NCBI GenBank assembly: GCA_000002445.1
Contig: CP000071.1
Span: 928,001 to 992,000, forward strand
DNA: 64,000 nt
Direction of reading: 5' to 3'
From: Trypanosoma brucei
Taxonomy: Eukaryota
Shown piece after piece: positions 45,301 to 64,000 of the stretch. Position 1 is the stretch's first letter. Each line of letters begins with the position of its first letter. The notes below the pieces were generated by a model. That model searched no databases. It was given only the letters and a program-made list of their open reading frames with translations, and was not told the origin of the DNA. Position numbers and translations under genes: made by a program.

Positions 45301-48300
45301 TACATGACACTGACAACCGCACTACAGTTGCACCGAGGAGGGCTTCCGCAGGGTCCTGCAGGAACAGGCAAGACGGAAACTGTGAAGGATCTTGGCAAAG
45401 CTATCGGCAAGTACGTCATGGTGTTCAACTGCTCTGATGGTCTAGATTACAAATCTGTTGGTCGGATGCTCAGTGGTATTGCGCAAACGGGTTCGTGGTC
45501 GTGCTTTGATGAGTTTAACCGTATTGAGGTGGAGGTGCTTTCTGTTGTGGCGCAGCAGATTCTGTCAATCCTCACAGCCGTTTCCGAGCGCAAAGATCAT
45601 TTCCTCTTCGAAGGTTCAGACATTCCACTCAACATGAACTGCGGTCTTTTCGTCACAATGAATCCGGGTTATGCGGGGCGGTCGGAACTCCCTGATAACC
45701 TTAAGGCGCTACTTCGTCCCATTTCCATGATGGTACCAGATTTCGCACTTATTTGCGAAATTACTTTGTTGTCAGAAGGCTTTGAGGAGTCAGAAACTTT
45801 ATCGAAAAAGGTTTCGATTTTGTATGAGCTCATGGAAAAGCAGCTCTCGAAGCAGGATCACTACGATTTCTCCCTCCGTAACATCAAGGCGGTGTTGGTT
45901 CAGGCAGGTAACCTGAAGCGTGAGGGATTCCCGGGGACGGAGTCTCAATTGTGCCTCAAGGCAATGAACGATATGAACCTTCCCAAATTTGTAAAGGATG
46001 ACGTGCCGCTGTTTGTTGGAATGCTGAATGACCTTTTCCCTGGTGTTGAACCCGGTGATAGTGGACTGGGTGCTCTCCAAGAAGCCGCTGAGAAAGAATT
46101 GGATGCAGAGGGACTTGAGGTTAACGCACATATAGTGGTAAAGACGCTGCAGTTGTGGGACACCCTTCGTACCCGCCATGGTGTGATGGTTGTTGGGCAA
46201 ACGGGATCGGGTAAGACGGTGACCTGGCGTAACCTTAGTGGTGCTCTACGGCTTCTGAAGGAGCAGAATCTGGAACCTGGGCTGTACGAGCCTGTTAGGG
46301 TGTCATTACTGAATCCCAAGTCTGTCACCATGGATGAGCTATACGGCAGTTACAACCAAGCTACACGTGAATGGAAGGACGGAATTCTTTCGGACCTCAT
46401 GCGGCAGATTTGCCGTGACATAACGGACACGGCATATAAGTGGATGTTATTCGATGGTCCGGTTGATACGTTGTGGATAGAGTCCATGAACACTGTTTTG
46501 GACGATAACAAGATGCTCACACTTAACTCGGGTGAACGTATTACCCTTAACTCAACCGTCCGAATGATGTTTGAGGTTCAGGATTTATCGCAGGCCTCGC
46601 CCGCAACCGTTTCTCGTTGTGGTATGGTTTACTTTAACGTTGAGGACCTCGGGTGGATGCCGTTCTTTAAGACGTGGTTGAAGTCACGTTGGAAGTTTGA
46701 AATCACGATGGGCGCGCCGAGGCCCGACGATACCATCAGCGAACTGCAGGAGTATGTGAAGAACACAGTTACGCGCGTTCTGGAGTACCGAGCCCATGAG
46801 TGTGTTGAGTTGGTTCCAACTACCACCTTAAACGTCGTCCGGTCTTTCACGCGTATGTTAGACGCGCTTGCGAGCGTGGATGCTGAACCGTTTGTTCCTG
46901 AAGCCGCGCACTACGCTACTTCTCACGCAGGTGAAAACTATCTTCCCCAGTTGCGGATTCTTGCGACGTTCTGCCTCATGTGGTCAGCCGGTGGTTCCCT
47001 CACGACAGAATCCAGACAGAAGCTTGATGCCTTCATTCGTGAACTGGACTCCTCCTTCCCGTCCACAGAGACTATTTTTGAGTACTTCCCCGACCTGGGT
47101 GGCCTGCAGTGGAAGAATTGGAATGAACACGTGGACCTTCAGAAAACGTATATGCCAGCCACCGGCACCCCATACCACAAGTTAATTGTCCCTACTGTGG
47201 ATACTGTGCGTTACGAGTATATTGTGAGTCAGCTTGTACGCAGCCAAGTACAGTTGGTGCTTGTTGGGACAACTGGTACTGGAAAGTCTCTCATCGCAAG
47301 GCAGGTGCTGGCTAACCTTAGTAACGATGTGTATGTCACGACCCAGCTGAACTTCTCTGCACAGACGACAGCAGGTAACGTTCAAGACATTATTGAAGGA
47401 CGCATGGAACACAAATCAAAGAAAGTTTGCTGTCCACCGGGTGGTCGCCGTATGATTTGCCTTGTAGAAGACTTGAACATGCCGGCCAAGGAAAAGTTCG
47501 GTGCTCAGCCACCACTGGAGTTGTTACGTCAATGGTTAGACAATGGTTACTGGTACGACAGGAACACACGAGGAAGGCGAACCGTCAACGACCTCCAGCT
47601 GCTTTGCTGTATGACGTATGGCCGGCCAGACATCACGCCGCGGCTAATGAGTAAACTCAATGTGTTCAACATTACGTTTCCTTCAGAATCCGTCATCACG
47701 AAGATTTTCACTTCGATTCTTATGTACCGCTTGGAGCCGTATCCTGAGCTGCATAAGCTCGTGAACTCTGTTGTGAAAGCAACTCTTCAGACCTATCAGA
47801 AGGTGTCAGCGGATTTGTTGCCAACTCCGAGTAAGTCGCATTATTTGTTCAACCTTCGTGATCTCAGTAAAGTCTTCCAAGGCATCTACGGTTGCCACAT
47901 GGAATACCTTCAATGTAAGGAGCATATGGTGGCATTGTGGGCCCACGAATGTTTCCGTGTGTTCTCCGATAGAATGAATGATCCAAATGACAAGGCGTGG
48001 TTCAAGAACCTCATTTGCGAGAAGTTGGCAGATATCTTTCAAACTAAGTGGAACAACATCATTCGTGCACGTTCGCGCGACTCCCGCAACCAGGCAGTGG
48101 ACGAGAAGGAGAACCCTCTGTTTGTTGACTTCTGGGATGGCGAGTATGACGAGATGGCAAAGTACCGCCTTGTCCCCTCATTAGAAGCCCTCCGCGACAA
48201 GGTGGAGGAATACCTCGATGCCTATAATAGTGAGCCCGGTGCGCGGCAGATGAATCTCGTCTTTTTCACGGACGCCCTTGAACATCTTTGCCGCATCCAC

Positions 48301-51300
48301 CGTATCGTACGTCAGCCACGAGGTAATGCGCTTCTAGTGGGGCTCGGCGGTAGCGGCAGATATTCGCTTACGCGACTCGCCACGTACCTCGCGGGGTACT
48401 CGATATTCTCCATTGAGACTCACAAGAAGTATGACTTGGATCGCTTCCACGAGGACCTTCGCTCGCTTTACAAGGGATGTGGGCTGAAGGGTCAGCAGAG
48501 GGTCTTTTACTTCTCCGACAATCAGATCATGCAACCGGCATTCTTGGAGGACCTCAACAACATGCTCTCGACGGGTGAAGTGCCAAATCTGTTTCCTAAG
48601 GACGAGTTGCAGAATATTCGTGACACAGTATGCAAGCAGGCGATCGCGAGCGGGTACCGTGACACACCAGACGAGATGTACAACTTCTTCATCGACCGAG
48701 CGCGGACGAACCTTCATCTCGTGGTAGCTATGTCCCCCGCTCACAAACTGTTCCGCGCGCGCCTGCGCCAATTCCCCGCGCTGGTGTCATGCACGTCGAT
48801 CGACTGGTTTGTGGAATGGCCCAGTGAAGCGCTTCGTGAGGTCGGCTTACGTTACCTTCAGGAAACGCGTGAAAATAAGGAGGATGACGAACACCTTGGC
48901 ATCATTTCAGACTTCTTCGTTTATATGCACTACACAACCAGCACACTTTCGCGGGAGATGTTGGAGCAGGTACACAGGTACAACTACGTAACGCCCTCTT
49001 CTTACCTTGACATGGTGCGTGGGTTCCGCAGAATGCTAACACAGAAGCGGGACGAAATAATTGAGCAACGTGATAAGCTGGCGAATGGTATGGCAAAGCT
49101 CGAGGAAACCAAGCTGGCGGTGAGCAAAATGACTGAGGAGCTCAAAGTGCAGGATGCCAAATTGCAGGAAAAAACGGAGGAGGTAAACCGTGCGACGGAG
49201 AGTATCAAGGTACAGCAACAGAACGCGGAGGAACAGCAGAGTTTGCTCGCATCAGAGAAGGTAAAGATAGAACAAACGAAACGATCTGCGTTGGCTGACC
49301 AGGCGGAGGCTCAGGCGGATCTGGATCGTGCTATGCCCACACTATTGGAGGCGCAGAATGCCCTTGACAAACTTGAGAAGAACGATATTAACGAAATAAA
49401 GTCGTACAAAACGCCCGCCGCGATGATTCGGACAGTGATGTACGCCGTGCAGACGACACTGCGACGGAAGCTAGAGTGGGACGAGGCCAAAAAGTCGCTA
49501 AGTGAGCCTAAGTTCATTGATATGCTGAAGCACTATCACGAGAACAATGATATGACGGACCAGCGCCTTCTGGATAAAATTGAAAAGTATGTTAAACGTC
49601 CGGATTTTACTCCCGCTGCAGCAAGTGCTGTGTCTAAGGCTGCTGGTGGTCTTTGCCAGTGGGTGATAGCAATTCATAAGTATGGTAACATTTATAAGGA
49701 GGTGCATCCCAAGATTGTCAAAAACGAAAATGCGCAGCAGAAAGTCCGGGCCCAGGAGGAGATGCTTCGGCAGAAGGAAGAAAAGTTACAAAGGATTATG
49801 AGTGAAGTCAAACAACTAGAGCTTGCTCTGCAGCAAAATGTAGATGAGAAGATGCGCCTGATGCAGGAGGCGAAGGAGACGCAGATGAAGCTCGACCGAG
49901 CACGTATTATTGTTGATGGTTTGGAAGGTGAACAGGACCGGTGGATTGAGTCAATTGCCCGTTACGAGGCTGCTCTCGGCACGCTCGTTGGGGATGCCCT
50001 GCTTGTTTGTGGTTTCTTGTGCTACGCTGGTGCTTTTACTGCGGACTATCGGCAAAAACTGTGGTTAAATTGGATTAAGGAGATTAAGCGGCTGCAAATT
50101 GCAATATCGAAAAATTTCGACTTCGTGGAATTTCTTGCCGATCCAACTGAAGTGCGTGACTGGCAGCAGGCTGGTCTTCCTGGCGACGACTTCAGCAAGG
50201 AGAACGGTGCGGTGGTGATGCGAGGAACCCGGTGGCCTCTTATGATTGATCCACAGTTGCAGGCGATTAAGTGGATCAAGCGAATGGAAAAAGATAAGGG
50301 TCTCAAGGTTATTGATCAGAAGCAGCCGGACTTTCACAAGACGGTGGAGTACGCCGTCCAATTCGGTTGCCCATTACTTCTGCAGGATATTCTTGAGGAA
50401 ATCGATCCTCTGCTTGACTCAGTGCTTTCCAAGGCGATCGTGCGCAAGGGGGCGAAGCCTATTTTGAAGATTGGTGACAACTACGTGGAATACAACGACA
50501 ACTTCAAGCTTTACATAACGACACGCCTGCCGAACCCTCACTATACGCCCGAGATATGCAGCAAGGTCTGCTTGCTCAACTTTGCTGTACGAGAAACTGG
50601 CTTGGAGGAGCAGCTGCTTAAGATTGTGGTAGAGAAGGAGAAGCCTGAACTGGAGCAAGACAACGAGCAGTTGATTCTCGACACCGCCGAAGCGAGGAAG
50701 GAGACAAAACGTCTGGAGGATGAAATCCTCAACCTGCTCTCTACTTCACAGGTGTCGTTGTTGGAAAATAAGAAGCTAGTGGATACTTTGCAGTCGGCGC
50801 GTGTTATTGCAGCGAACATTAAACAACAGTTAAAGGAGGCGGAAATTACCGCGGAGAAGATCCACAGTGCCCGCGAGCAGTACCGTGAATGTGCCCGCCG
50901 CGCCTCTATTCTGTTCTTTGCGCTTGCTGATCTGGGGTCTATCGATGCCATGTACCAGTTCGCTCTTGATTCGTATATCGTTTTGTTCCAGGGCAGCATT
51001 CAACGGTCCGCGCAAAAAATCGCCACCCACACCCTAGAAGAGCGTGTGCGAACGCTCAATGATTGGCACACCAGCGCCGTCTACGCGAACACATGCCGAG
51101 GGTTGTTTGAGAAACACAAGCTGCTCTTCACGTTTCACATGACGATCCGTATCTTGCAGGCTGAAGGTCTGGTGAATATTGAAGAATATGTCTTCTTGAT
51201 GCGCGGTGGTCAAGTTCTGGACAAGCAAGGACGTTTGCCGAACCCTGCACCTTCGTGGCTTTCTGAGCGAGCGTGGAGCCACATCCTTGAGTTGGACAAG

Positions 51301-53409
51301 TTGACAAACTTCCACGGCGTTGCCGCGTCGTTTGAGCAAGCACAGGAGTCGTGGAAGCACTGGTTCTTGCAAGAGAACCCTGAAGACGCTGAGCTTCCAG
51401 ATGACTGGCAGACACGTACGGCAGACAATTACATCCAGCGCATGATATTTGTGCGTTGCCTTCGTCCTGATCGGGTTATATTTATGGTGTACGAATTCAT
51501 CGAGAAGCAACTCGGGCCTCAGTTCGTGGATCCTCCACCGTTCAATCTCAAGGACACCTTCGAGGAAAGTACCAATGTTGTGCCACTGGTATTTGTACTC
51601 TCCCCTGGTGTTGATCCGACCACCCAACTGGCGGCACTCGCGCAGCGCGAAGGACGCCCACTGAAAACACTGGCGCTAGGGCAGGGTCAGGGTGAGAATG
51701 CTAAGCGCGCTGTTCAGGAATGTTCACAGGTAGGCGGCTGGGTGTTCTTGGCGAATTGTCACTTAATGGTGTCCTGGTTGGTAGAATTAGAGAAGATTAT
51801 TGAGGATCTGGTGGAGCAACGGCCACATAAAGAATTTCGTCTGTGGCTCAGCTCGGTCCCCACAACACAGTTTCCTATCGGTATCTTGCAGCGAGCGATC
51901 AAAATGACTACAGAGCCTCCCACTGGAATCAAGGCGAATATGTTGCGGCTGTATAACCAGTTTTCCGAGGAGCAGTTCGCGGAGCACACGGGCTCTAATC
52001 CACAGATCTACTGCAGTCTTCTCTTCGCGCTCTGCTTCTTCCACTCTATACTTCTGGAGAGGCGCAAGTTCGGTAACCTTGGGTACAACGTTGTATACGA
52101 TTTCACCACTTCCGACTTCGAGGTGTCCGAGAACATTATTGCTCTGTACATTGGCAACATGGCAACTGACCGAGTAGAGGACATACCATTTGTTACTATT
52201 CGCTACCTTATAGCGGAAGCCTCATACGGTGGTCGTGTGACAGATGACTGGGACCGTCGTGTGATCAACACATACATCTCTCAGTTCATGTGCCCAGCAA
52301 TCCTGACGGAAGAGCGATATCCACTTTCGGCTGCCGAGGAGTACTACATTCCCTCAGGGATCAGCACACTTCAGGCCTATAAGGACGAGTGCTCGTTGCT
52401 TCCCATCACCGATCCACCAGAGGCTTTTGGTCAGCATACGAACGCGGATATTGCCAGCCGTGTGGCGGAGTCGACAATGCTTCTTGACAATCTCATCAGT
52501 GTTAACAAAACTCTGGCTCGTGGTGGCGGCTCCTCTGGGGGCGCATCCAAGGGTATGTCAGAGGAAGCACGTTGTTTAGAAATTCTCGCGTCACTGGAGG
52601 AACCAAGCAAGACAGCCATACCTAATCCCATTGACTACGATGCCGTCTACGAGTCTGTCAAGGAAGACACCAACAACGCGCTGAATACCTGTCTGTTGCA
52701 GGAAATTCAGAGGTACAACGTTCTACTTCGAAAGATAATCGTGCAGAAGAGGGAACTGCGCCGTGCTGTGAAGGGTGAAGTTTTGATGACCGATGAGCTA
52801 GAGGCGGTGTTTAATGCCCTTCTGTTGAGTCGCGTACCGCCGCCGTGGACGAGTGCATACCCCAGCATGAAACCTCTTGCGAGTTGGGCTGTTGATCTTG
52901 TGGAACGAATAGAGCAGATGAAACAATGGGGCCAGCGCGTGCCAAACGTGTTCTGGCTCTCTGGCTTCACATATCCCACAGGTTTCTTGAAAGGCCTGCA
53001 GCAGCAGCAGGCGCGTCATGACCGTATATCCATCGACCAGTACACGTGGGAGTTTGTTGTGCTTCCAAGTGAAGAGCGAACGATTGTCAACCGTGCCAAA
53101 AAAGGTGCGTACGTGCGCGGCATATTCCTTGAGGGTGCAGGCTGGAATGAAGAAATGAACACCCTTTGCGAACCGCGGCCACTAGAGCTTATAGTGCCTA
53201 TGCCTATTATCCACTTCAAGCCGAAAATACGGGACACTAAGCCGCGACCTCCTACTATTTATGAATGCCCACTTTACATGTACCCCTTGCGTACCGGTAC
53301 GCGTGAACGACCCTCGTTTGTTGTTGCCGTTGATCTCGAGTCTGGCGAAGCGGTACCTGAGCACTATACAAAACGTGGTACAGCGCTGCTACTCTCTACA
53401 GATGAGTAA
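39385..53409 (+). CDS. dynein heavy chain (4674 aa), axonemal-type
   Basis: The full motor is present: AAA1 Walker A [19 protein letters not shown] (~45352), AAA2 GQTGSGKT (~46200), AAA3 GTTGTGKS (~47270), AAA4 GLGGSGRYS (~48345); a coiled-coil stalk (~49050-49950); AAA5-6 and a C-terminal domain. The AAA1 block [32 protein letters not shown] carries the DYKS/AQTG pattern seen in axonemal rather than cytoplasmic heavy chains. Single uninterrupted exon. Confidence 0.93.
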   Translation: [4674 protein letters not shown]

Positions 53410-53430: not shown

Positions 53431-54291
53431 AACTCTACACATTCCCTTAATCTTGATTTTCTTCGTGTCTCCTATTTACGTATTTGCAGTGTCCACTCAA
53501 GTGGATGTTGCCGTGGCCGTTATTCTGTGAGTTTACTTTTTTTTTTTGCTGTTGTTTTCGGTCTTGCGTGTCGCCGTCGTTGTTGTTTTTAAATGATAGA
53601 CATTTTTTTTTCTTCTGTATCTGTATGTCGATGTACGTAACAGCCTCCAACGTTACTTTATTTCCTGTGAGGCCAAGCAATTAGAAGAGAGACGAAGTAA
53701 GATGGTGCAAAGGAATTTGTGGCACTAGGAACAAGAGAGGAAAGAAAGTAGTAAAAAAAACACCAATGATAGAGTTGATGTAAATAATAAAGAAAGAGCA
53801 AGCTGTGTGTGCAGCACCGCAGCAACCATCCCTGTTTTTGTCCTTGTTGCCAAGGACCTTTCTCTTTCCCCTCCCACTGCGTCCAATGTTTACTCACGAT
53901 AACACTATACAATTAGATGTGGCATATGTTTTCTGTTACCAAGAGAAGGAAAAAGGCAAAAAAAGGATTCAAACAGTTGGGTCCATGAATCAAAAAGTGG
54001 GACAATTTAACCATTCGCATTTACCTCCCGTGTTTACACCGTTGAATTTTACTCGCGGAGGGGCAGCAGCAGCTGTTGCCTGCGCTCATCGCTATTGTAT
54101 TGTGTTGTGCACTCGTGGGTCTTCTCTTTCGCTCTCATGTTCTTCTTTTTCTCTTCCTACCCTTTTCATCTCAACGCCGGAGCTTCCGCTGTTGGTGGCT
54201 GACCATTTTAGGTTTTGAAACTGTAGGATAAAACCAGTCCCCTTTCATAGCACATATCATTTAGTTATCAACTCCACTTTTGCAGGGGCGT

Positions 54292-54378
54292 GTGCGTGTG
54301 CGTGTGTGTGCGTGTTTGTTTGTGTAAAGTCGCAACTTCGATTGTTTTCTTTTTTTTTTTGTGTGTGTGTGTGTGCGC
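54292..54378. repeat. interrupted (TG)n/(GCGTGT)n microsatellite with T11 run
   Basis: gtgcgtgtgcgtgtgtgtgcgtgtttgtttgtg ... tttttttttttgtgtgtgtgtgtgtgcgcc, immediately 5' of the YceI-like ATG. Confidence 0.85.
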
Positions 54379-54394
54379 CCTCTTTTTTACAAGG

Positions 54395-54982
54395 ATGGGT
54401 TGGGGAAGCAGTGAAGAGCGACTTAGCAGCACCAGCAGTGAGTTGCGCGGTGTGGACATGTTTGTTTACACCCTTCCAAGTGGTGTACTCGGGCGTTTCA
54501 TCGGTCGCGCCCTGCGGTTCCGTGTGGATCGCTTTAACTTTAGCACTGGCCCAAGCGCTGATGGGAATGATAAGCGCCGGAGCCTTAAGAGTGTGGAGGT
54601 GGAAGCGAATTCATTATCACCTCTCTGTGAAGTGGACAAGTTTCAGTTTGAACGACTTCCATTAACGGTGTCTGAAATTGTGCGATTAGAGCGCCGCACG
54701 CGTGACTATGTGTTAGATGTCACGCGGTATCCACGTATTTTATATACAGTTGAGGAGGAAACACCAACGGAAGTGAAAGGCACGTTGGAGCTGCGTGGCG
54801 AACGGAAGGCAATCACGTGTACGAAATCAGTGGAAGGACCGGAACTAATTGTGCGTTGCCCAATTGATACCCGAGAATTTAATATCCCATCGTATTCACT
54901 CATGTATGGCGTGTTTGGTGTCTCGCCTCATGTACAGGTGGAAACCCGCATTCCACTTAGAGCGGTTCAACTGCAAGGTTGA
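54395..54982 (+). CDS. YceI-like (polyisoprenoid-binding beta-barrel) domain protein
   Basis: Blocks align to the YceI family: FVYTLPSGVLGRFIGRALRFRVDRFNF (cf. FKVKHLMVTTVTGRFKDFDGTFTFD); DYVLDVTRYPRILYTV...KGTLELRGERKAITC (cf. YPTITFKS...GDLTIHGVTKPV). The ORF-track GTG start at 54290 runs through a (TG)n microsatellite; the ATG at 54395 is used instead. Confidence 0.55.
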   Translation: MGWGSSEERLSSTSSELRGVDMFVYTLPSGVLGRFIGRALRFRVDRFNFSTGPSADGNDKRRSLKSVEVEANSLSPLCEVDKFQFERLPLTVSEIVRLERRTRDYVLDVTRYPRILYTVEEETPTEVKGTLELRGERKAITCTKSVEGPELIVRCPIDTREFNIPSYSLMYGVFGVSPHVQVETRIPLRAVQLQG

Positions 54983-56127: not shown

Positions 56128-56693
56128 TGGGTTTTGGTGTCGCTTATTCCTTTCTTTTTTTTTTGTCATTGGTGGGTATGTGTGCCTCCACCTCTTCAGT
56201 CAACATCCTTCCTCCCCTCCAACAACAACAACAAGGACGAGAAGCGGTGATTGAGCGATAGTTTACCTCTGTCAAGCATCGATTTTTGTTGCCGGGCACT
56301 CAGTTGTATCGCTCCCTCTCTTTTGTTTCTCTCTCCATTTATATTTTCACTTGCTTTCCGTTGGTATTACGCGTTTTCCCTCTGCACCTCAACATGGTTC
56401 CCATGCAAAGGGAGTGTGAGGCAGACGATTTAGTTACCTCAATTCCTGTGGTGCAAACGCGTATAAAGGTCATCAATAAGACATTAAAAAGGAAAAGAAG
56501 AATTCTGAGGGAGGAGGGAGGAGGGGGCGGAGTCGCTTATAAAAAAGAAAGCGAAGAAGGAAACACGCAACGACGAACTGAAGAAGGGCATCGTGATATT
56601 TGATTGTGTCACGAAGGGACCGACAGCTCTCCACAGACTCATTATTACTTTCACATGAAGGGAGGCGTGGGAAGGAGTACTGCTGCGCCACAG

Positions 56694-57758
56694 ATGGAAT
56701 TTGTGCGTGCCGTAATTGTTGGTTCCGGTTCGAGCAGCAGCACGCCCATGCTTTCTTGTGCACTTTCCGGTTCCCCATGCCCCAATTGTGAGGAGGCTCT
56801 CCGTTGTAGTGGTAGCAAAAATCATCGCTTGAACCCCTCTTTCCTCATACAGCTTTACCATCCGACGGATCGTACAGTACACAACATCCTCATTGACTGC
56901 GGTAAGACGTTCCGAGAGTCGGCACTAAAGGTTTTTCCTTCGTTTCTTGTCCGCGATTTCAGTGCCGTATTGCTCACGCATGACCACGCCGATGCTTCGT
57001 ATGGCATTGACGACCTCAGGGAGTTTAGCCGTAAAGATGTTCCTATCGGGGTGTACGCGGATGAGACAACGCTCGCAGCCATGAGAGGGGTTTACCCTTA
57101 CTTGTTCGCAGAAGACATGCGCAGCAGAGGCGCTGGGGAACCAGCTAAGAAGGAAGTAAAGAAGAATAAGTTTGTCGCCACCATCAATTGGGAGTTATTC
57201 ACCAGAGTCGAACGAATGGATGTGGTGTTTTCTCCACGGCCGAAGGGGGTGACAACTGGGAACGAGGGCGATATTGCTGATGGGTGTGAAACTGGGGCAC
57301 CCGCGGTGTGGTCGTTTGTGCCCGTTGGCGTTCCGCACGGTGAGAATTATCGTGCAAACGCTTTTCTTGTGCCGATGCATGACAAGAGCGAGTCGCCGCG
57401 ACTGCTTTTGTACGTTTCAGATATTAGTGAGTTGGAGGACCGATTTTTCACGGACTTGGCGCGCTCTAAGGTGTTGCTTGGCGTTGACCCCGCTGTCCCC
57501 ATTGAGGTACTGGTGCTGGACATGTTATCACGGAGGCCATACGTCGCTCATCTGCACGTGGAAGCGTCCATTGCCGCTGCAAAAAGGATCAATGCTGCCA
57601 AAACGTATTACGTCGGTATGTCACATAGGATAAACTACGATGAGATGATGCAGGAGCTTCAGCAGCTAGGTTTGGGTGCCACAATGGAAATGGGATACGA
57701 TGGCTGTGTTGTCTCCGTCGGAGACTCGGGACTGCAGCACCTTAGTGGACGTTTATGA
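56694..57758 (+). CDS. metallo-beta-lactamase-fold hydrolase (PhnP/ElaC-like MBL superfamily)
   Basis: N-terminus MEFVRAVIVGSGSSSSTPM (the typical MBL start, M..I.LGtGsS.G.P). HxHxDH zinc motif as LTHDHADASYGIDDL. Downstream conserved Asp/His residues. The ORF-track TTG start at 56604 was corrected to the ATG at 56694; the ATG at 56655 is also possible. Confidence 0.7.
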   Translation: MEFVRAVIVGSGSSSSTPMLSCALSGSPCPNCEEALRCSGSKNHRLNPSFLIQLYHPTDRTVHNILIDCGKTFRESALKVFPSFLVRDFSAVLLTHDHADASYGIDDLREFSRKDVPIGVYADETTLAAMRGVYPYLFAEDMRSRGAGEPAKKEVKKNKFVATINWELFTRVERMDVVFSPRPKGVTTGNEGDIADGCETGAPAVWSFVPVGVPHGENYRANAFLVPMHDKSESPRLLLYVSDISELEDRFFTDLARSKVLLGVDPAVPIEVLVLDMLSRRPYVAHLHVEASIAAAKRINAAKTYYVGMSHRINYDEMMQELQQLGLGATMEMGYDGCVVSVGDSGLQHLSGRL

Positions 57759-58080
57759 CATCACAGCCAACTGTTTTTGTTTTTTGAAGTTCAAATAAGC
57801 GCACCGATTGCTTATTGAGGGTTTTTATGGAAGTACCAGTTGAATTATCCAAAAGTACTTGTGTCGATGCATGCGGGAGGAGCGGGTTGGAAACTCGGCT
57901 ATTGGATGGGCCGAAGGCGTGGGTTGGCTTTTGAGTGTCAGGGAGTGCATGATTCGGCGTAGCGGAAGTTTGGCACGTTGCCTCATGGCTATTTAACAAC
58001 ATTTTTCTTATCAGGTGCGGGTTAGCTTGCAACTTCGCTCAAGAGACCTCTTTTGCTGGGCAATGACATTACGTCGGCAC

Positions 58081-58140
58081 TATTGTTTCCTTCCGTCTTA
58101 TTATTGTTATTGTTATTGTTTTTTTTTTGTTTTGTTTTGG
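58081..58140 (+). promoter_or_regulatory. polypyrimidine tract and candidate AG acceptor upstream of REV3
   Basis: The tract ttattattgttattgttattgttttttttttgttttgttttgg is followed by the first downstream AG (58142-58143), ~100 nt before the REV3 ATG. A 2-codon uORF (atgtgctaa at 58218) precedes the main ATG. Confidence 0.45.
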
Positions 58141-58240
58141 AAGGAAAAACGATAAAGAAAAGGATCAAAAGGGGGAGGGCAACAATAAGAGGGCACAGGG
58201 TGGGTTGATAGGACTTAATGTGCTAATACACACGGGGGCT

Positions 58241-61200
58241 ATGAACTTGTACGTAGTCTCCATTGAATACACACTTCAACGGCCGAATGCCGCTCTTGGA
58301 GACGCCGTCATGTCCCCTATGTTTCGTCGTGTTTCTTCCCGGTGCCCCATATTGCATATCTTTGGCTACACAACCACTGAAGGGAATGACAGAGCAGCTG
58401 GAGAAAAGAGTTACGTTCCGCGTGAGGCGGCAATATCTGAAAGTAAATTAGATAGCATACAACGGTACAGTGTTTGTGCTCATATTCACGGTGTGTATCC
58501 ATACTTTTTTGTGCAGCGTAGCAATTCGCGGATATCCGCTATGCAGTTTGGAACCCAGCTTGAGTCGGTTGCTATGGAGGCACTGAGCTCAGGACACAAC
58601 AAGTCAGCAGCTGCTCCGCGTCCCCATGATCGACAACAGCTGATACATCACGTTGATGTGGTTTGGTTGCTCCCCTTCTATGGTTATCACGGAAAGAAGC
58701 AGCCATTTTTTAAAGTGTACGTGGTTGACCCAGCGATGGTTAGCCGTTTTTTGCACCTGTTGTACTGCACAAAGCACATGGGTGGCCGGCAATGGTTGGT
58801 ATATGAGGCCCACTCACCATTTCACTTCCAGTTTATGGCGGATTATGGAGCAAAGGGAATGGGTGCCTTCTTCATTCCCTCCTGCACCGCGCGGTCAAAA
58901 CTTCCCGACAGTGTGCAGCCTGAGCAACTGAACATCGCCGCCGTGCGACCCGAAGGGGAGCCCGCCAGGCTTAGTTGTGCTCAGATTGAGGTTGATGTGT
59001 CGGCATCATCGTTGCGTTTCCGCGACGGAGCCGTGCAACCGGGCGAAAACCTGCTAACCGCCAGGCGCAACGTTCGGCAGTATTTTGCAGACCTTGGTGT
59101 AGATGATGCTGTGTTACGGGGGTGCACCTCTGGGTTGCTTGCGCGTCGTTTCACTGTTAGTGACCAACAACGTTGTGACCTTGGGGCCGTTTTGTTGCGT
59201 AAGCGCTTTAATGAGTCTCTTAAAGCAAAATTCACAGATCCCGTTGTTGAGGAACAGGAGAAAGTGGATAGCCCCGTCGGCGTTACACAACAATTAATGG
59301 AAGATATGCAAGGGATCGTCGGCGAGGTCCTACTTCCGGATTCATCTCCGGGATGCTTCTCCGCACCGCAACATTCGCTGCACAATGATCAGGGCGAAGT
59401 GGGAACATCACAGGACCCCCTAGTGCCTCCAGGAGTGACTAGTGAGCAGGGAGGATGTGACGAAAGGGAACGACCTCTCCCGCGTTGTAGATCCTCTGAC
59501 ACACCGTTACCAGGCAATGATTATGTAGAAGGAATGTCACCAAGGGGTGAGGACGAACCGAGTGTACTGTTCCCATCGACCCTCAGTAGTGACGGCCCTG
59601 GAAGTAGTAGTAATACTAACGCTTGTGGCTGCAGTGTTGAAAGTAGTAAGGGGGGAAACGAGGTTGCCCTTGACGCCCGTCTGCGGAACGACTGTGGCGA
59701 CAGTGACAGGAATTGGAGAGAATCTCTTTCAGTTGGCGACACGGTTGCCATTGCGTCAGAGGAGTCACACGACACAACTACAGCAAAATCTTGCCTGTTT
59801 GCCAAGATCGTGTGTTTAGGCACCAGCAGTGTCCGCCTGCGGTGGTATGTTGCGTTAAGCGAGACCCATCTCGCTGACTGTCAGGATGAACTCGAGAAAC
59901 GTGGTTGTTGGTTGGGCAAAGGAACGAAACTTGGTGGGTGTACTCCCGTCGCACAAGGTTACCAGGAGGAACTGTTACTTGGAGATGTGGAGGATATAAA
60001 TTCGATTAGTGTGCTCAGGCAGGGCCCACCCATAGTGGTTCACCACTCTTACCACAGTTTCATTCATGACAGAAACTGCGGTAAGATCATCGGTGATGGT
60101 GATTGTTTCATTTCCATTGCACTGCTCTGTAGGTATAATTACCATGTTCGTGAGCGGCGGCTTTCGGCCATCGAACCTCGGGGGGATGATAATTACGTGG
60201 CGATGCCCGCGTTGCTCCTTCAGTCTACGCCATGTGCTTCCAGTGATGATGAAAGCTCTCTCCTTGCTGAAGTGGCGGATGAAGATGAAGAGCTCTTCTC
60301 TTCACTTTCTTTATCACCTCCTCCAGACGGGTGCGAGCTGTGTACATTTCCACACCAACGGGCCCCGTCCAGACCGAGTGGATCGGATCACAGGGTGAGC
60401 GGGAATAATTTCAAGCTACCCGAGGGGTTGAGGCGTTCCGTATCGAAAACAATGCAGTGCGCTGTGCAATCGCAGTTGTCACTACTTCAAAGTTTTTCAG
60501 TCTGTTGCTCACTTTCACCACGTATTCGGGAACCTGTCTCTCCGTCTGTTGTAGCTATAAGCAGCGGTGTGACGAGACCTTCTTGTGCTCTTTCCTCTTC
60601 GTCTGTCGAGTGCGTGGACCCGCAACGCGAAGCTCTGTTAGTGGAGTTTAAGCGTGAGGGTTCGTGTGTGCGGTGTTCTAATCTTATTGGAGATATACCC
60701 CGAAATTTCATCTGGAGGTTTGATCCAATTCAAAGACGTGTGGTTATATCCGGAGCAACGTGGCCACGAGTGGTGGCACTCGCTCCGAAGCTTCCACCAC
60801 CAACGAAATGTGTTTCCTCCCTGTTGAAGCGACCCTCAGTTCAACTTCTCACACGCATAGCACATTCGCAGGATTTGACGCCACCAGAAGGCGCCCACAC
60901 AGTTGCGGCAAAACAGGAATGGTGCCCGCATGGCTCCAGCAGTGGATCCCGCTCTCAGCGCCACTCCACTCGTCTCATATGTGCTCTGCGTGTGATGTTG
61001 GTCGAGGTGTTTCTTCATCGCAGGGACGGCGTGCAGCATGTTGCACAAGAACGTCTTTTGGCTGTCGGATTGGGCCGAACGACGTCAATTGATGAGAGGG
61101 TCAAAGTGCGGCTTTTTTGTGTGACGGGGCTCTCACAAAAAGTCCCGGTGGGCCAACCACGCGTGAGCCCATTTAGTGGTGCGGTGGAGGTGGTCCAGTT

Positions 61201-64000
61201 GCCGTCAGAGGAGCACTTGCTGAGGCACGTCATGTGGGAAATTCGAGCTTATGATCCCGACGTTATCATATCCTGGGAGGTGGGCAGAAGTGGAATAGGG
61301 CTGCTGGCGCTGCGCTACAAGATCGCGCTTCGCCGCTCGCTCGCGCGTGACTTATCACGCTTGACGCCAGATAGCGCACTGTTTAACCAGAGAAGCGAGA
61401 ACATACATCTTAATCCCGAAGAGAAACCCTCTAATAGTAGTGACGAAAATATTAGTGAGGTCGAATGCGTATCCCCTTCCTCTGACTCATCACACTCTTC
61501 TTGCTCGGAGTCAACACTGTTCTCCACGGGCAGTGGGGCAACTGCTGCTACTACTAGGGGTTCTGTGGCACATGTTAGAGGTGGGTCGACCAATGCACAT
61601 CCTAATCTTGGCGATTTGACGAAGCAGCTCTCCCGTCGTTTTGGTGGAAGTCCACAGGTAGCCGGGAGAATCATTGTTGATCTTAGCAAGTATTTGCGCA
61701 AATATCTTCAGCTGCCGTCAACTACCCTACAGATGGTATATAAGAAACTGTTCAACAGCAGCTTGCCCTTCTTTACTGACGTCGCCCTCACGCGGATGTA
61801 TTGTGCGGGAGAAGCGGGTATGCAACGTGTTTTTATGTCGATTCTCCTTACACGTGTCGTCGCCCCGCACCGCATCGCCCAGCATCTGCACTTCTTCACC
61901 CGCACAGCGGAGTTCGCCCGCATGTTTGGAATTCTGTTTAGTGAAGTTTTAACCCGTGGGAGTCAATACCGCGTGGAAGCCACGTTACATCGCATGGCGA
62001 AGCCCATGGGTTTTGCGCTGCTTTCACCACCACTGGAAGTTGTACACCGTCAACCGCGGTTGCAGAGTATGCCACTGATAATGCAACCACGCAGTGGCTT
62101 CTACAAGGACGACCCCGTTGTTGTTTTGGACTTCCGCAGTCTGTATCCAAGTATTGTTATAGCTTACAACATCTGCTACACAACCTGTCTTGGTTCTGTG
62201 GGGAAAGGTGTGTATGGACGCTTGGGTGTGCTCAAGTCGTACAAACGAGACGACATGCTTCTTTCCTCACTTCTCAGTGGTCTTGCGGACACCAAGAACG
62301 ACCACAATGGCAAAAACGACGACAATGAAAACAGTAACACACTACACGGCGTGACATTTACGCCCAACGGATGTATGTTCTTAACTCCGGAGAATCGTGA
62401 GGGTGTGCTACCTCAGATGCTTCGTGTTTTACTTGACACCCGCGTGGATCTGCAGGCAGCTCTGAAGCATGTGGCTCACCCCTTCGGAGACATTTACATG
62501 CAACAGATCTTGCAGGAACAACAGATGGCTATTAAAATGCTTGCCAATACAACCTATGGTTACACCGCAGCTTCCTTTACTGGACGTATGCCGTGCGCCG
62601 ATGTGGCTGACGCTATTGTCATGCTAGGACGCCAGACGTTGGAGCGAGCCATGTGGTTAATCAATAGTCACCCCGTTTGGAAGGCAGAAGTTGTTTACGG
62701 CGACACGGATTCATTGTTTGTGCGTCTACCGGGGAGAACCAAGGAAGAGGCATTCGCAGTAGGAGAGGAGATGGCTAAAGAAGTGACAGCGGTTAACCCA
62801 GCTCCCGTGCGCCTGCAATTCGAGAAGGTGTTGTTTCCTTGCCTTCTCCTAGTGAAGAAACGTTACGTGGGGTATGCCTATTTCAAGCCCGAACAACAGG
62901 AGCCGCAATTTTTGGCAAAGGGAATTGAGACGGTTCGAAGGGACCAGTGCCCAGCCACTGCGCACCTTGCTGCAAAAATGATTCACCTTCTCTTCTCCGG
63001 GGCAGGCACTGAAACCTTGCGACAGTGTTTCTATGAAGAAGTAAGTAAATTGCAACGTGGAGACTGCAGTCCAGTTGACTGCATATTTCGGAAGGCTGTG
63101 AAATTTGGAAGGTATAAACCCAATGGGCGTTTACCAGCAGCAGCGCGTCTCGCGGCATTGCTTGTGGAGAAGGATGCCATGAGGACTCCTTACTGGGGGG
63201 AGCGCATACCATTCGTCGTAATTCGACGGCCGGAATCCACACGATTAAGCGATCGTGTTGTCCACCCCCAACAGCTGCTGAGTGATGAGGATCATCTTAT
63301 GCTTGACAGTGAGTACTATATCACACGACACATTGTTCCTACGCTCGACAGGATGTTTTATCTGGTTGGTGTGAGTTGTGGCCGCTGGTATGCGGAGATG
63401 CCTCGGGGTCGTACTTACCAAAACTACTTTGAACTGGGATTAAGTATTGCTGCGACAAAAGCCGCCAAGCGGGCGCGAGGAGTGGCGACGCCCCCTACTT
63501 TGTGCGCTGATGTCATTAACGTTAATATTTCCAATGCCAATCACGGTAATGAAAGGTTCAAGAGAAAAGGTAGGGGTAAAGGTAAAGGTGGCAGTGGGCT
63601 GCTTGGAAATCAGTCGGCGAGGGGTGCGAAAAATCGAACCCTTGATTCATATTACCAGCAGACTCTATGTGCTGTATGCCTCACAAACTCAACAGCCACC
63701 TCACCGACTGACCCTCCAGTTTGCAAGGGATGTCTTGAAAATTTATCAACCACCGCCCAACGCGTGACGTCACGACGTTACCGCGTGGAGCGCCACCTAC
63801 AACTTATGAAAATGGCCTGCTTGCGATGCATAGGGACTTGTGGTGAGGTGGGTGGGCCGGGTTTTCTATCCAGTCGGAAGAGGGATATGGAAGATATGAA
63901 TTTCTGCATCCCGCATAGCCTTGCTGCTGCACCTGACCGTGGCGTTCACGACGCTGGTGTTGTGGTGCGACGGTGGGGGAAACGTCAGCAGAAGCTTCAG
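58241..64000 (+). CDS. REV3: DNA polymerase zeta catalytic subunit (REV3), 3'-partial; runs off the window end
   Basis: Frame 2 is open from the stop at 58064-58066 to the window end, so it is absent from the ORF track. N-terminal pol delta/zeta-type block PILHIFGYTT...HIHGVYPYFFV. A ~2 kb low-complexity insertion follows. Exonuclease-like region ~61100-61900. Family B motif A DFRSLYPSIVIAYNICYTT (~62135), motif B KMLANTTYGYT (~62535), motif C VYGDTDSLFV (~62695). CysA C-x2-C...C-x2-C (~63668-63737) and CysB cysteines (~63815-63909). Start is 58241 (MNLYV...) or 58310 (MSPMFRRV...). Confidence 0.85.
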   Translation, partial: MNLYVVSIEYTLQRPNAALGDAVMSPMFRRVSSRCPILHIFGYTTTEGNDRAAGEKSYVPREAAISESKLDSIQRYSVCAHIHGVYPYFFVQRSNSRISAMQFGTQLESVAMEALSSGHNKSAAAPRPHDRQQLIHHVDVVWLLPFYGYHGKKQPFFKVYVVDPAMVSRFLHLLYCTKHMGGRQWLVYEAHSPFHFQFMADYGAKGMGAFFIPSCTARSKLPDSVQPEQLNIAAVRPEGEPARLSCAQIEVDVSASSLRFRDGAVQPGENLLTARRNVRQYFADLGVDDAVLRGCTSGLLARRFTVSDQQRCDLGAVLLRKRFNESLKAKFTDPVVEEQEKVDSPVGVTQQLMEDMQGIVGEVLLPDSSPGCFSAPQHSLHNDQGEVGTSQDPLVPPGVTSEQGGCDERERPLPRCRSSDTPLPGNDYVEGMSPRGEDEPSVLFPSTLSSDGPGSSSNTNACGCSVESSKGGNEVALDARLRNDCGDSDRNWRESLSVGDTVAIASEESHDTTTAKSCLFAKIVCLGTSSVRLRWYVALSETHLADCQDELEKRGCWLGKGTKLGGCTPVAQGYQEELLLGDVEDINSISVLRQGPPIVVHHSYHSFIHDRNCGKIIGDGDCFISIALLCRYNYHVRERRLSAIEPRGDDNYVAMPALLLQSTPCASSDDESSLLAEVADEDEELFSSLSLSPPPDGCELCTFPHQRAPSRPSGSDHRVSGNNFKLPEGLRRSVSKTMQCAVQSQLSLLQSFSVCCSLSPRIREPVSPSVVAISSGVTRPSCALSSSSVECVDPQREALLVEFKREGSCVRCSNLIGDIPRNFIWRFDPIQRRVVISGATWPRVVALAPKLPPPTKCVSSLLKRPSVQLLTRIAHSQDLTPPEGAHTVAAKQEWCPHGSSSGSRSQRHSTRLICALRVMLVEVFLHRRDGVQHVAQERLLAVGLGRTTSIDERVKVRLFCVTGLSQKVPVGQPRVSPFSGAVEVVQLPSEEHLLRHVMWEIRAYDPDVIISWEVGRSGIGLLALRYKIALRRSLARDLSRLTPDSALFNQRSENIHLNPEEKPSNSSDENISEVECVSPSSDSSHSSCSESTLFSTGSGATAATTRGSVAHVRGGSTNAHPNLGDLTKQLSRRFGGSPQVAGRIIVDLSKYLRKYLQLPSTTLQMVYKKLFNSSLPFFTDVALTRMYCAGEAGMQRVFMSILLTRVVAPHRIAQHLHFFTRTAEFARMFGILFSEVLTRGSQYRVEATLHRMAKPMGFALLSPPLEVVHRQPRLQSMPLIMQPRSGFYKDDPVVVLDFRSLYPSIVIAYNICYTTCLGSVGKGVYGRLGVLKSYKRDDMLLSSLLSGLADTKNDHNGKNDDNENSNTLHGVTFTPNGCMFLTPENREGVLPQMLRVLLDTRVDLQAALKHVAHPFGDIYMQQILQEQQMAIKMLANTTYGYTAASFTGRMPCADVADAIVMLGRQTLERAMWLINSHPVWKAEVVYGDTDSLFVRLPGRTKEEAFAVGEEMAKEVTAVNPAPVRLQFEKVLFPCLLLVKKRYVGYAYFKPEQQEPQFLAKGIETVRRDQCPATAHLAAKMIHLLFSGAGTETLRQCFYEEVSKLQRGDCSPVDCIFRKAVKFGRYKPNGRLPAAARLAALLVEKDAMRTPYWGERIPFVVIRRPESTRLSDRVVHPQQLLSDEDHLMLDSEYYITRHIVPTLDRMFYLVGVSCGRWYAEMPRGRTYQNYFELGLSIAATKAAKRARGVATPPTLCADVINVNISNANHGNERFKRKGRGKGKGGSGLLGNQSARGAKNRTLDSYYQQTLCAVCLTNSTATSPTDPPVCKGCLENLSTTAQRVTSRRYRVERHLQLMKMACLRCIGTCGEVGGPGFLSSRKRDMEDMNFCIPHSLAAAPDRGVHDAGVVVRRWGKRQQKLQ

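What the first reader, a model, noticed from the sequence alone, without database searches (positions are those of the whole stretch)
58241..64000. REV3 (DNA polymerase zeta) gene invisible in the ORF track because it runs off the window
Frame 2 is open for more than 5.7 kb, from the stop at 58064 to the window end, and no complete ORF was reported there. The translation has the pol delta/zeta N-terminal block (PILHIFGYTT...HIHGVYPYFFV). A ~600-aa Ser/Asp-rich insertion follows, then family-B motifs A, B and C (DFRSLYPSI, KMLANTTYGYT, YGDTDS). CysA/CysB cysteine clusters sit in the last 350 nt, so the gene ends shortly beyond 64000. A large insertion between the N-terminal domain and the polymerase core is the REV3 hallmark (versus the delta and alpha polymerases).
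Basis: seen in the sequence. Interest (0 to 1): 0.5.

Follow-up and report, generated by a model that had tools for sequence, protein, structure and literature searches.

The report
Known trypanosome DNA polymerase zeta gene
The long open frame at the window's end is the already annotated and already knocked-out REV3 (DNA polymerase zeta catalytic subunit) gene of Trypanosoma brucei, cut 38 codons before its stop; the only unexpected thing is a possible chromatin-reader (BAH-like) module inside its insertion.

Summary
Frame 2 is open from the TGA at 58064 to base 64000, with no stop in 1978 codons.

From the ATG at 58241, the ORF is 100% identical to XP_847160.1, "DNA polymerase zeta catalytic subunit, putative". 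That is Trypanosoma brucei brucei TREU927 gene Tb927.8.3290 (TbREV3), 1958 aa. The window holds codons 1-1920. The other 38 codons and the TGA lie beyond it, so the gene would end at 64117.

The REV3 reading is supported:
- Yeast Rev3 is the best solved relative (457 bits); human Pol delta scores 225.
- Polymerase motifs A, B and C are intact.
- The exonuclease motifs carry the zeta-type inactivating substitutions.
- In a tree of the polymerase region the gene sits on the zeta side.

Two details need correcting:
- Only CysA and the first CxxC of CysB are in the window. The CX4C half of CysB starts at 64019.
- The insertion is about 675 aa and only mildly Ser/Asp-rich.

The gene is already known. 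Null mutants have been published; they are viable and not hypersensitive to damage.

One incidental lead: a conserved block of about 150 aa inside the insertion (59723-60190) looks like a BAH domain. The evidence is moderate and incomplete. I found no description of it in the papers I searched.

The parts
58064..58066 (+). In-frame TGA that opens the long frame-2 reading frame
58080..58143 (+). T-rich, polypyrimidine-like tract (78% C/T over 60 nt). The first AG after it is at 58142-58143, about 98 nt upstream of the ATG. Probably the trans-splice acceptor signal (inferred, not shown).
   Evidence: Sequence. The function is inferred from established knowledge of trypanosomatid trans-splicing.
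58241..64000 (+). TbREV3 / Tb927.8.3290 coding sequence, codons 1-1920 of 1958. The last 38 codons and the TGA lie beyond the window (window-equivalent 64001-64117).
58241..58930 (+). N-terminal domain of the Pol delta/zeta type (aa 1-230). Pfam POL3_N covers aa 84-168; a weak REV3_N hit covers aa 5-46. Aligns to yeast Rev3 residues 69-226.
58931..60955 (+). Insertion between the N-terminal domain and the exonuclease-like domain (aa 231-905, about 675 aa). Mostly poorly conserved, with three conserved islands.
59723..60190 (+). Conserved BAH-like block (aa 495-650): GDTVAI, AKIVCL, VRLRWY..SETHLAD, EELLLGDVEDIN, LLCRYNYH.
60350..60373 (+). PHQRAPSR (aa 704-711). It fits the PxxxxPSR core of the REV7-binding motif, but is present only in T. 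brucei subspecies.
60956..61360 (+). Exonuclease-like domain with zeta-type inactive motifs: LVEVF (ExoI equivalent, starts 60986) and DPDVIISWEVGRSGIG (ExoII equivalent, around 61268).
61361..61615 (+). Poorly conserved Ser/Thr/Gly-rich loop inside the exonuclease-like region (aa 1041-1125).
61934..63358 (+). Family B polymerase domain (Pfam DNA_pol_B, aa 1232-1706, E 4e-84).
62129..62155 (+). Motif A, DFRSLYPSI (catalytic Asp).
62534..62566 (+). Motif B, KMLANTTYGYT (zeta-type: ...TYGYTAASFTGRMPC).
62696..62713 (+). Motif C, YGDTDS (catalytic Asp pair).
63668..63733 (+). CysA metal-binding module: C1810-x2-C1813 ... C1828-x2-C1831.
63818..63829 (+). First half of CysB (C1860-x2-C1863). The second half (C1927-x4-C1932) is outside the window, at window-equivalent 64019-64036.

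Best explanation
This is the single-copy Trypanosoma brucei gene for REV3, the catalytic subunit of DNA polymerase zeta (Tb927.8.3290). It lies in a plus-strand polycistronic unit on chromosome 8 and is truncated by the window edge 38 codons before its stop.

Shown here:
- An intact 5.9-kb ORF.
- A family B polymerase core with the catalytic aspartates of motifs A and C.
- An exonuclease-like domain that lacks the proofreading carboxylates.
- A delta/zeta-type N-terminal domain.
- A long insertion between that domain and the exonuclease-like domain.
- A C-terminal CysA plus CysB module.

Inferred from what is established for yeast and human Pol zeta:
- The protein extends primer ends opposite or just past DNA lesions, after an inserter polymerase has acted. 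It does so without proofreading.
- Its CysB module (an iron-sulfur cluster site in yeast) docks the Pol delta accessory subunits.
- A motif in the insertion binds REV7.

Published work reports that T. brucei bloodstream-form null mutants are viable. They are not hypersensitive to hydroxyurea, phleomycin, MMS, UV or mechlorethamine. In these cells the enzyme is therefore dispensable or backed up by other polymerases.
For: - Identity to the annotated protein.
- Gene ID and knockout phenotypes: bioRxiv 10.1101/543975.
- Listed as the Pol zeta gene in PMC7576959 and PMC12578213. Named as an MMS RNAi-screen hit in PMC5542689.
- Pfam domains.
- Yeast Rev3 457 bits against Pol delta 225 bits.
- Zeta-type motif alignment.
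- Tree and distances.
- CysA and CysB alignment.
- Stop codon in the gambiense orthologous locus.
- All ORFs of 250 aa or more are on the plus strand.
Against: - Pfam REV3_N, DNA_pol_B_exo1 and zf-C4pol all score below their curated cut-offs.
- The REV7-binding-like motif is not conserved in other trypanosomes.
- My tree has no outgroup, so the root between delta and zeta is assumed, not shown.
- No polymerase activity or subunit interaction has been demonstrated for the trypanosome protein.
- The null mutant has no damage phenotype, while an RNAi screen suggested a role in the MMS response.
Confidence: 0.95

Rival explanations
1. It is the replicative Pol delta catalytic subunit (POLD1), not Pol zeta.
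For: It shares the POL3_N and zf-C4pol domains and overall family B similarity with Pol delta.
Against: - Pol delta scores half of what Rev3 scores (225 against 457 bits), and only in fragments.
- The exonuclease catalytic positions are substituted as in zeta. For example, delta's YCLKDA aligns with ILLTRV.
- There is a 675-aa insertion after the N-terminal domain.
- The literature lists a separate Pol delta gene in T. brucei.
- The null mutant is viable, which would not be expected for POLD1.
Confidence: 0.01
2. It is a decaying or non-functional relic: a pseudo-enzyme that no longer polymerises DNA.
For: - The null mutant shows no growth or damage-sensitivity phenotype.
- The protein has many lineage-specific insertions, including a 63-aa spacer that splits CysB.
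Against: - The 5.9-kb ORF is intact. It differs from T. b. gambiense at only 13 aa.
- The polymerase core is 71-72% identical across Trypanosoma species, with all catalytic motifs kept.
- The transcript was detected by RT-PCR in wild type.
Confidence: 0.04
3. It is a zeta-derived polymerase that works differently in kinetoplastids. It would be recruited through its own chromatin-binding (BAH-like) module rather than, or in addition to, the REV7/REV1 route.
For: - A BAH-like block is conserved in Trypanosoma REV3 and, more diverged, in Leishmania and Leptomonas.
- There is no conserved REV7-binding motif.
- None of the Pol zeta hits from other lineages carries Pfam BAH in the precomputed domain lists.
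Against: - Pfam's BAH model does not match the block.
- The structure model has low confidence (pLDDT 51.6).
- Foldseek E-values are weak (0.004 and above).
- No binding data exist.
Confidence: 0.3

Closest known systems
Saccharomyces cerevisiae Rev3 (Pol zeta catalytic subunit; PDB 6V8P, 7LXD)
   Same: - The best solved relative: 457 bits, with a continuous alignment of Tb aa 1139-1724 to Rev3 817-1377, plus the N-terminal domain.
- 41.9% identity on 480 ungapped columns.
- Same order of N-terminal domain, insertion, dead exonuclease, polymerase, CysA and CysB.
   Different: - The T. brucei protein is about 450 aa longer.
- Its insertion carries a conserved BAH-like block.
- It has extra loops in the exonuclease-like and palm regions.
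- The two halves of CysB are 63 aa apart.
- The Rev7-binding motif is not clearly conserved.
Vertebrate REV3L
   Same: A zeta-type polymerase core with the same motifs. There is a very large insertion after the N-terminal domain. The PxxxxPSR pattern that marks the REV7-binding site in REV3L occurs once in TbREV3.
   Different: REV3L is about 3100 aa, and its insertion carries PF15735 rather than a BAH-like block. The T. brucei PxxxxPSR is absent from other trypanosomes.
Pol delta catalytic subunit (POLD1 / Pol3)
   Same: Sister family B polymerase, with the same N-terminal domain type and the same CysA/CysB C-terminal module.
   Different: Pol delta has active proofreading motifs and no long insertion. 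It is 29-32% identical on the compared columns, against 42-47% for the zeta proteins.
BAH (bromo-adjacent homology) domains, such as DNMT1 BAH1, EBS, BAHCC1, ORC1, PBRM1
   Same: - The profile of the block hits a protein with a bona fide Pfam BAH domain.
- hhalign gives 91% probability against that protein.
   Different: - No match to Pfam BAH.
- No PDB BAH sequence is found by a profile search.
- The model has low confidence.
- The block carries an extra segment of about 20-25 aa, so the alignment register around the W-containing strand is ambiguous.

Membership tests
DNA polymerase zeta catalytic subunit (REV3) | Family B polymerase domain with the catalytic aspartates of motifs A and C and with motif B | tested here: met
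   Pfam DNA_pol_B at E 4e-84. DFRSLYPSI, KMLANTTYGYT and YGDTDS are present and aligned with zeta homologues.
DNA polymerase zeta catalytic subunit (REV3) | Closer in sequence to Rev3/REV3L than to Pol delta, alpha or epsilon | tested here: met
   - 457 bits to Rev3, 225 to Pol delta and 91 or less to Pol alpha.
- Mean distances are 1.02 to zeta and 1.62 to delta. Split support is delta|rest 100%, kinetoplastids 100%, other zeta 93%.
- The tree has no outgroup.
DNA polymerase zeta catalytic subunit (REV3) | An exonuclease-like domain is present but the proofreading carboxylates are lost | tested here: met
   - The motif equivalents are LVEVF, SWEVGRSGIG and ILLTRV. They align with zeta-type SLEVH, GYE..SWGY and VSRV.
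- Delta's YCLKDA aligns with ILLTRV.
- The identities of the delta ExoI and ExoII motifs come from established knowledge, not from a sequence aligned here.
DNA polymerase zeta catalytic subunit (REV3) | Large insertion between the N-terminal domain and the exonuclease domain | tested here: met
   About 675 aa (aa 231-905). It lies between the Rev3-aligned N-terminal domain and the exonuclease-like motifs.
DNA polymerase zeta catalytic subunit (REV3) | C-terminal CysA and CysB four-cysteine modules | tested here: met
   All eight cysteines align with zeta homologues in the full-length protein. In the window itself, only CysA and the first CxxC of CysB are present. Pfam zf-C4pol scores 21.7 bits, below its 28.9 cut-off.
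DNA polymerase zeta catalytic subunit (REV3) | REV7-binding motif (PxxxxPSR type) in the insertion | tested here: inconclusive
   There is one match, PHQRAPSR at aa 704-711. The same pattern finds the known site in platypus and Drosophila REV3L. It is absent from every other kinetoplastid orthologue examined.
DNA polymerase zeta catalytic subunit (REV3) | Lesion-bypass or mismatch-extension activity, and assembly with REV7 and the Pol delta accessory subunits | not testable with these tools
   This needs biochemistry. The literature found reports only knockout phenotypes.
Pol delta catalytic subunit | Active 3'-5' exonuclease motifs | tested here: not met
BAH domain (for aa 495-650 only) | Match to the Pfam BAH model (PF01426) | tested here: not met
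   No hit for any of 7 orthologous segments, even at E up to 10.
BAH domain (for aa 495-650 only) | Significant profile similarity to a bona fide BAH domain | tested here: inconclusive
   - hmmsearch against 1.84 billion proteins hits P0053 at E 1.9e-5. Its aligned region is a Pfam BAH domain at E 3.8e-26.
- hhalign gives 91% against P0053 but 58% against a small four-sequence BAH alignment.
- A spurious-looking bacterial Ig-repeat protein scored better in the same search (P0052, E 3.3e-7).
- A profile search of PDB sequences found no BAH.
BAH domain (for aa 495-650 only) | BAH fold | tested here: inconclusive
   - The AlphaFold2 model has pLDDT 51.6 and pTM 0.51.
- The ten best Foldseek PDB hits are all BAH-containing structures, but E is 0.004-0.14.
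BAH domain (for aa 495-650 only) | Binding to histone tails or nucleosomes | not testable with these tools
   This needs experiments.

The most novel reading that the evidence does not exclude
The conserved 150-aa block in the REV3 insertion (aa 495-650, window 59723-60190) may be a BAH-fold module that binds chromatin. It is shared by kinetoplastid REV3 proteins and absent from the Pol zeta proteins of other lineages seen here. If so, trypanosomatid Pol zeta could be tethered directly to nucleosomes or to particular histone marks. I found no paper describing this. It may still be visible in domain or structure databases that I could not query.
Probability: 0.35. Interest if true: 0.5.

Novelty: already known. 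Interest (0 to 1): 0.12.

Why it matters
As a gene finding it adds nothing new. The gene is annotated in GenBank/RefSeq, listed in reviews of trypanosomatid polymerases, and has been deleted experimentally.

It does show a blind spot in the scan: ORFs cut by a window edge are missing from the ORF track.

The one point that could matter is the BAH-like block. A translesion polymerase with its own chromatin reader would suggest a route of recruitment specific to this lineage. These parasites rely on subtelomeric recombination and mutation for antigenic variation, so where an error-prone polymerase acts is of interest.

Tried and rejected
- Two database searches meant to collect more orthologues of the BAH-like block returned nothing. 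The exact parent protein is in that database, so these are tool misses, not evidence of absence.
- The look-up of encoding contigs had no record for the TREU927 protein. I used the T. b. gambiense orthologue instead.
- The first AlphaFold2 run, with 4 sequences, was unusable (pLDDT 41).
- A profile search of PDB sequences with the block gave only non-significant MHC class II Ig-domain hits. I treat these as noise from beta-strand patterns, and likewise the bacterial Ig_7 repeat protein P0052.
- The bootstrap values printed are invalid for the deep splits, because rooted clades were compared with unrooted replicates. I recomputed them as bipartitions.
- I considered and rejected Pol delta and pseudogene readings (see the rival explanations).
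- I ran no further search on collecting Pol delta, alpha or epsilon sequences. The tree therefore uses only the human and yeast Pol delta segments transcribed from the alignments, and it has no outgroup.
Full report
**1. The observation.** Translating 58064-64000 on the plus strand gives a TGA followed by 1978 sense codons and no stop. The ORF lister omits ORFs that run off the window, and it shows nothing for this frame. The first ATG is at 58241. A T-rich tract (58080-58139, 78% pyrimidine) followed by an AG at 58142-58143 lies upstream of the ATG. This fits a trypanosomatid trans-splice acceptor, but that function is inferred only.

**2. Identity.** The 1919-aa translation from 58241 is 100% identical to a 1958-aa protein, XP_847160.1 / AAZ13094.1. 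That protein is annotated "DNA polymerase zeta catalytic subunit, putative" in Trypanosoma brucei brucei TREU927, on a 2.48-Mb contig. The literature calls the gene Tb927.8.3290, or TbREV3.

The window holds codons 1-1920. I could not retrieve the TREU927 contig. The orthologous T. b. gambiense DAL972 locus (FN554971.1) is 99.3% identical over the 5760 nt, with 13 amino-acid differences. It continues with 38 codons (GEEDIRCVSVDCHL...VTTR) and a TGA.

**3. Anatomy.**
- *Pfam domains.* DNA_pol_B covers aa 1232-1706 (E 4e-84) and POL3_N covers aa 84-168 (E 3.5e-15). Three further hits are below their cut-offs: DNA_pol_B_exo1 (aa 978-1014), zf-C4pol (aa 1810-1866) and REV3_N (aa 5-46).
- *Solved structures.* Yeast Rev3 scores 457 bits. 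One continuous alignment joins Tb 1139-1724 to Rev3 817-1377, and a second covers the N-terminal domain. Human Pol delta scores 225 bits in three fragments. Archaeal PolB scores about 115 bits or less, and Pol alpha about 91 or less.
- *Motifs.* I aligned the protein with zeta proteins from fungi, animals, a green alga and other kinetoplastids. Motifs A, B and C are intact and of the zeta type (...TYGYTAASFTGRMPC). The exonuclease-motif equivalents are LVEVF, DPDVIISWEVGRSGIG and ILLTRV. They line up with the zeta consensus (SLEVH, DPDI..GYE..SWGY, VSRV) and not with the delta catalytic residues. Delta's YCLKDA aligns with ILLTRV.
- *Tree.* The NJ tree used 480 ungapped columns, with human and yeast Pol delta segments transcribed. 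Three splits are well supported: delta against the rest (100%), the kinetoplastid clade (100%) and the other zeta proteins (93%). Mean distances are 1.02 for kinetoplastid-zeta, 1.62 for kinetoplastid-delta and 1.52 for zeta-delta. The tree has no outgroup, so it shows proximity to zeta rather than a rooted placement.

**4.
- *C-terminal cysteines.* They align with those of other zeta proteins. CysA is C1810/C1813/C1828/C1831 (63668-63733). CysB is C1860/C1863 (63818-63829) plus C1927/C1932. The second CysB pair starts at window-equivalent 64019, outside the window. The two halves of CysB are 63 residues apart in T. brucei, against about 9-20 in the fungal and animal proteins aligned.
- *Insertion.* It spans about aa 231-905 (675 aa). 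Its composition is Ser 12.4% and Asp 6.4%, against 9.2% and 5.0% overall. It is not uniformly low-complexity. Identity to T. vivax and P0003 is 27-28% in the linkers but 42-53% in three islands: aa 495-650, 731-760 and 786-845.
- *Further loops.* Poorly conserved loops also lie in the exonuclease-like region (aa 1041-1125, Ser/Thr/Gly-rich) and in the palm (aa 1331-1370, Asn/Asp-rich).

**5. What is already known.**
- bioRxiv 10.1101/543975 identified Tb927.8.3290 as Tbrev3 by reciprocal BLAST and described its domains. The authors made null mutants in bloodstream-form cells. The mutants grow normally. They are no more sensitive than wild type to hydroxyurea, phleomycin, MMS, UV or mechlorethamine, and they show no interaction with TbSNM1.
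- A genome-wide RNAi screen named the Rev3 homologue as a putative MMS-response gene (PMC5542689).
- Two surveys list it as the Pol zeta gene by homology (PMC7576959, PMC12578213).

The finding is therefore a correct re-discovery of an annotated and studied gene.

**6. Mechanism.**
*Shown:* an intact polymerase active site, a proofreading-dead exonuclease domain, and the CysA/CysB module.
*Inferred from yeast and human Pol zeta:* extension from lesion-distorted or mismatched primer ends without proofreading; docking of the Pol delta accessory subunits through CysB; and REV7 binding through a motif in the insertion.

One PxxxxPSR match (PHQRAPSR, aa 704-711) exists. The same pattern recovers the known site in platypus and Drosophila REV3L. 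It is absent from all other kinetoplastid orthologues examined, so it is inconclusive.

**7. The incidental lead: a BAH-like block.** The island at aa 495-650 has a BAH-like pattern: GDxV, AKI, VRLRWY..ET, ELLLGD.ED.N and LLCRYNY.

Evidence for:
- A profile of four Trypanosoma sequences was searched against 1.84 billion representatives. It found REV3 orthologues of T. vivax, T. rangeli, T. cruzi marinkellei, T. congolense and T. grayi, and more weakly those of Leishmania enriettii and Leptomonas seymouri. It also found P0053 at E 1.9e-5, and the aligned region of P0053 is a Pfam BAH domain at E 3.8e-26.
- hhalign gives 91% probability against P0053.
- An AlphaFold2 model from 7 sequences was built without templates and without any BAH sequence in the alignment. 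The ten best Foldseek PDB hits are all BAH-containing structures: DNMT1, mostly its isolated BAH1 domain, plus EBS and BAHCC1. Their probabilities are 0.84-1.0, but E is only 0.004-0.14.

Evidence against:
- hhalign gives only 58% against a four-sequence BAH alignment.
- Pfam's BAH model does not match any orthologue.
- A profile search of PDB sequences finds no BAH.
- The model has low confidence: pLDDT 51.6, pTM 0.51.
- A probably spurious bacterial Ig-repeat protein scored better than P0053 in the representative search.
- The register around the tryptophan strand differs between alignments.

None of the non-kinetoplastid zeta hits carries Pfam BAH. I found no paper linking BAH to REV3 or to trypanosome REV3. 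I rate a real BAH fold at roughly 60-70%, and a working chromatin-reading function at about a third.

**8. Context.** All 14 ORFs of 250 aa or more in the window are on the plus strand, as expected for a trypanosomatid polycistronic unit. Upstream neighbours include a 4674-aa dynein heavy chain, an XPG_N/XPG_I nuclease, a metallo-beta-lactamase-fold protein and a weak YceI-like ORF.

**9. Verdict.** The gene is already known, so interest is low. The only open lead is the BAH-like module.

Noticed in passing
[not shown]
   Followed up: yes
window 63830-64000 and beyond (aa 1864-1926): The two cysteine pairs of CysB are separated by 63 residues in T. brucei (about 45 in P0003). The spacing is about 9-20 in the fungal and animal Pol zeta proteins aligned. 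This may be why Pfam zf-C4pol falls below its cut-off. The T. vivax protein model lacks the first CxxC altogether.
   Followed up: partly
window 60350-60373 (+), aa 704-711: PHQRAPSR fits the PxxxxPSR core of the REV7-binding motif. It is found only in the T. brucei subspecies, not in other kinetoplastid REV3 proteins.
   Followed up: partly
window 31090-33483 (+): An ORF with XPG_N and XPG_I domains. From its ATG at 31090 it is exactly 2394 bp. That matches the 2394-bp Tbexo1 gene studied in the same paper as TbREV3. The paper gives two different gene IDs for it: Tb927.4.1480 in the Results and Tb927.8.3220 in the Methods.
   Followed up: partly
window 58241-64117 compared with the literature: bioRxiv 10.1101/543975 describes Tbrev3 as a 6181-bp gene encoding 217 kDa. 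The annotated coding sequence is 5877 bp (1958 codons plus stop). That agrees with the stated mass but not with the stated length.
   Followed up: no
window 39385-53409 (+): A 4674-aa ORF with the full set of dynein heavy chain domains.
   Followed up: partly
window 56604-57758 (+) and 54290-54982 (+): The immediate upstream neighbours are a Lactamase_B_2 (metallo-beta-lactamase fold) protein and an ORF with a weak YceI-like hit at E 2.7e-5. The gambiense locus has the same Lactamase_B_2 gene upstream. Downstream it has a 691-aa protein with no domain hit, then a radical SAM protein.
   Followed up: no
window 1-64000: All 14 ORFs of 250 aa or more are on the plus strand, consistent with one polycistronic transcription unit.
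   Followed up: no
window 61361-61615 and 62231-62350 (+): Two poorly conserved, compositionally biased loops sit inside otherwise conserved domains. One is Ser/Thr/Gly-rich, in the exonuclease-like region. The other is Asn/Asp-rich (KNDHNGKNDDNENSN), in the palm. Identity to other Trypanosoma species is 23-25%, against 55-72% in the flanking regions.
   Followed up: no
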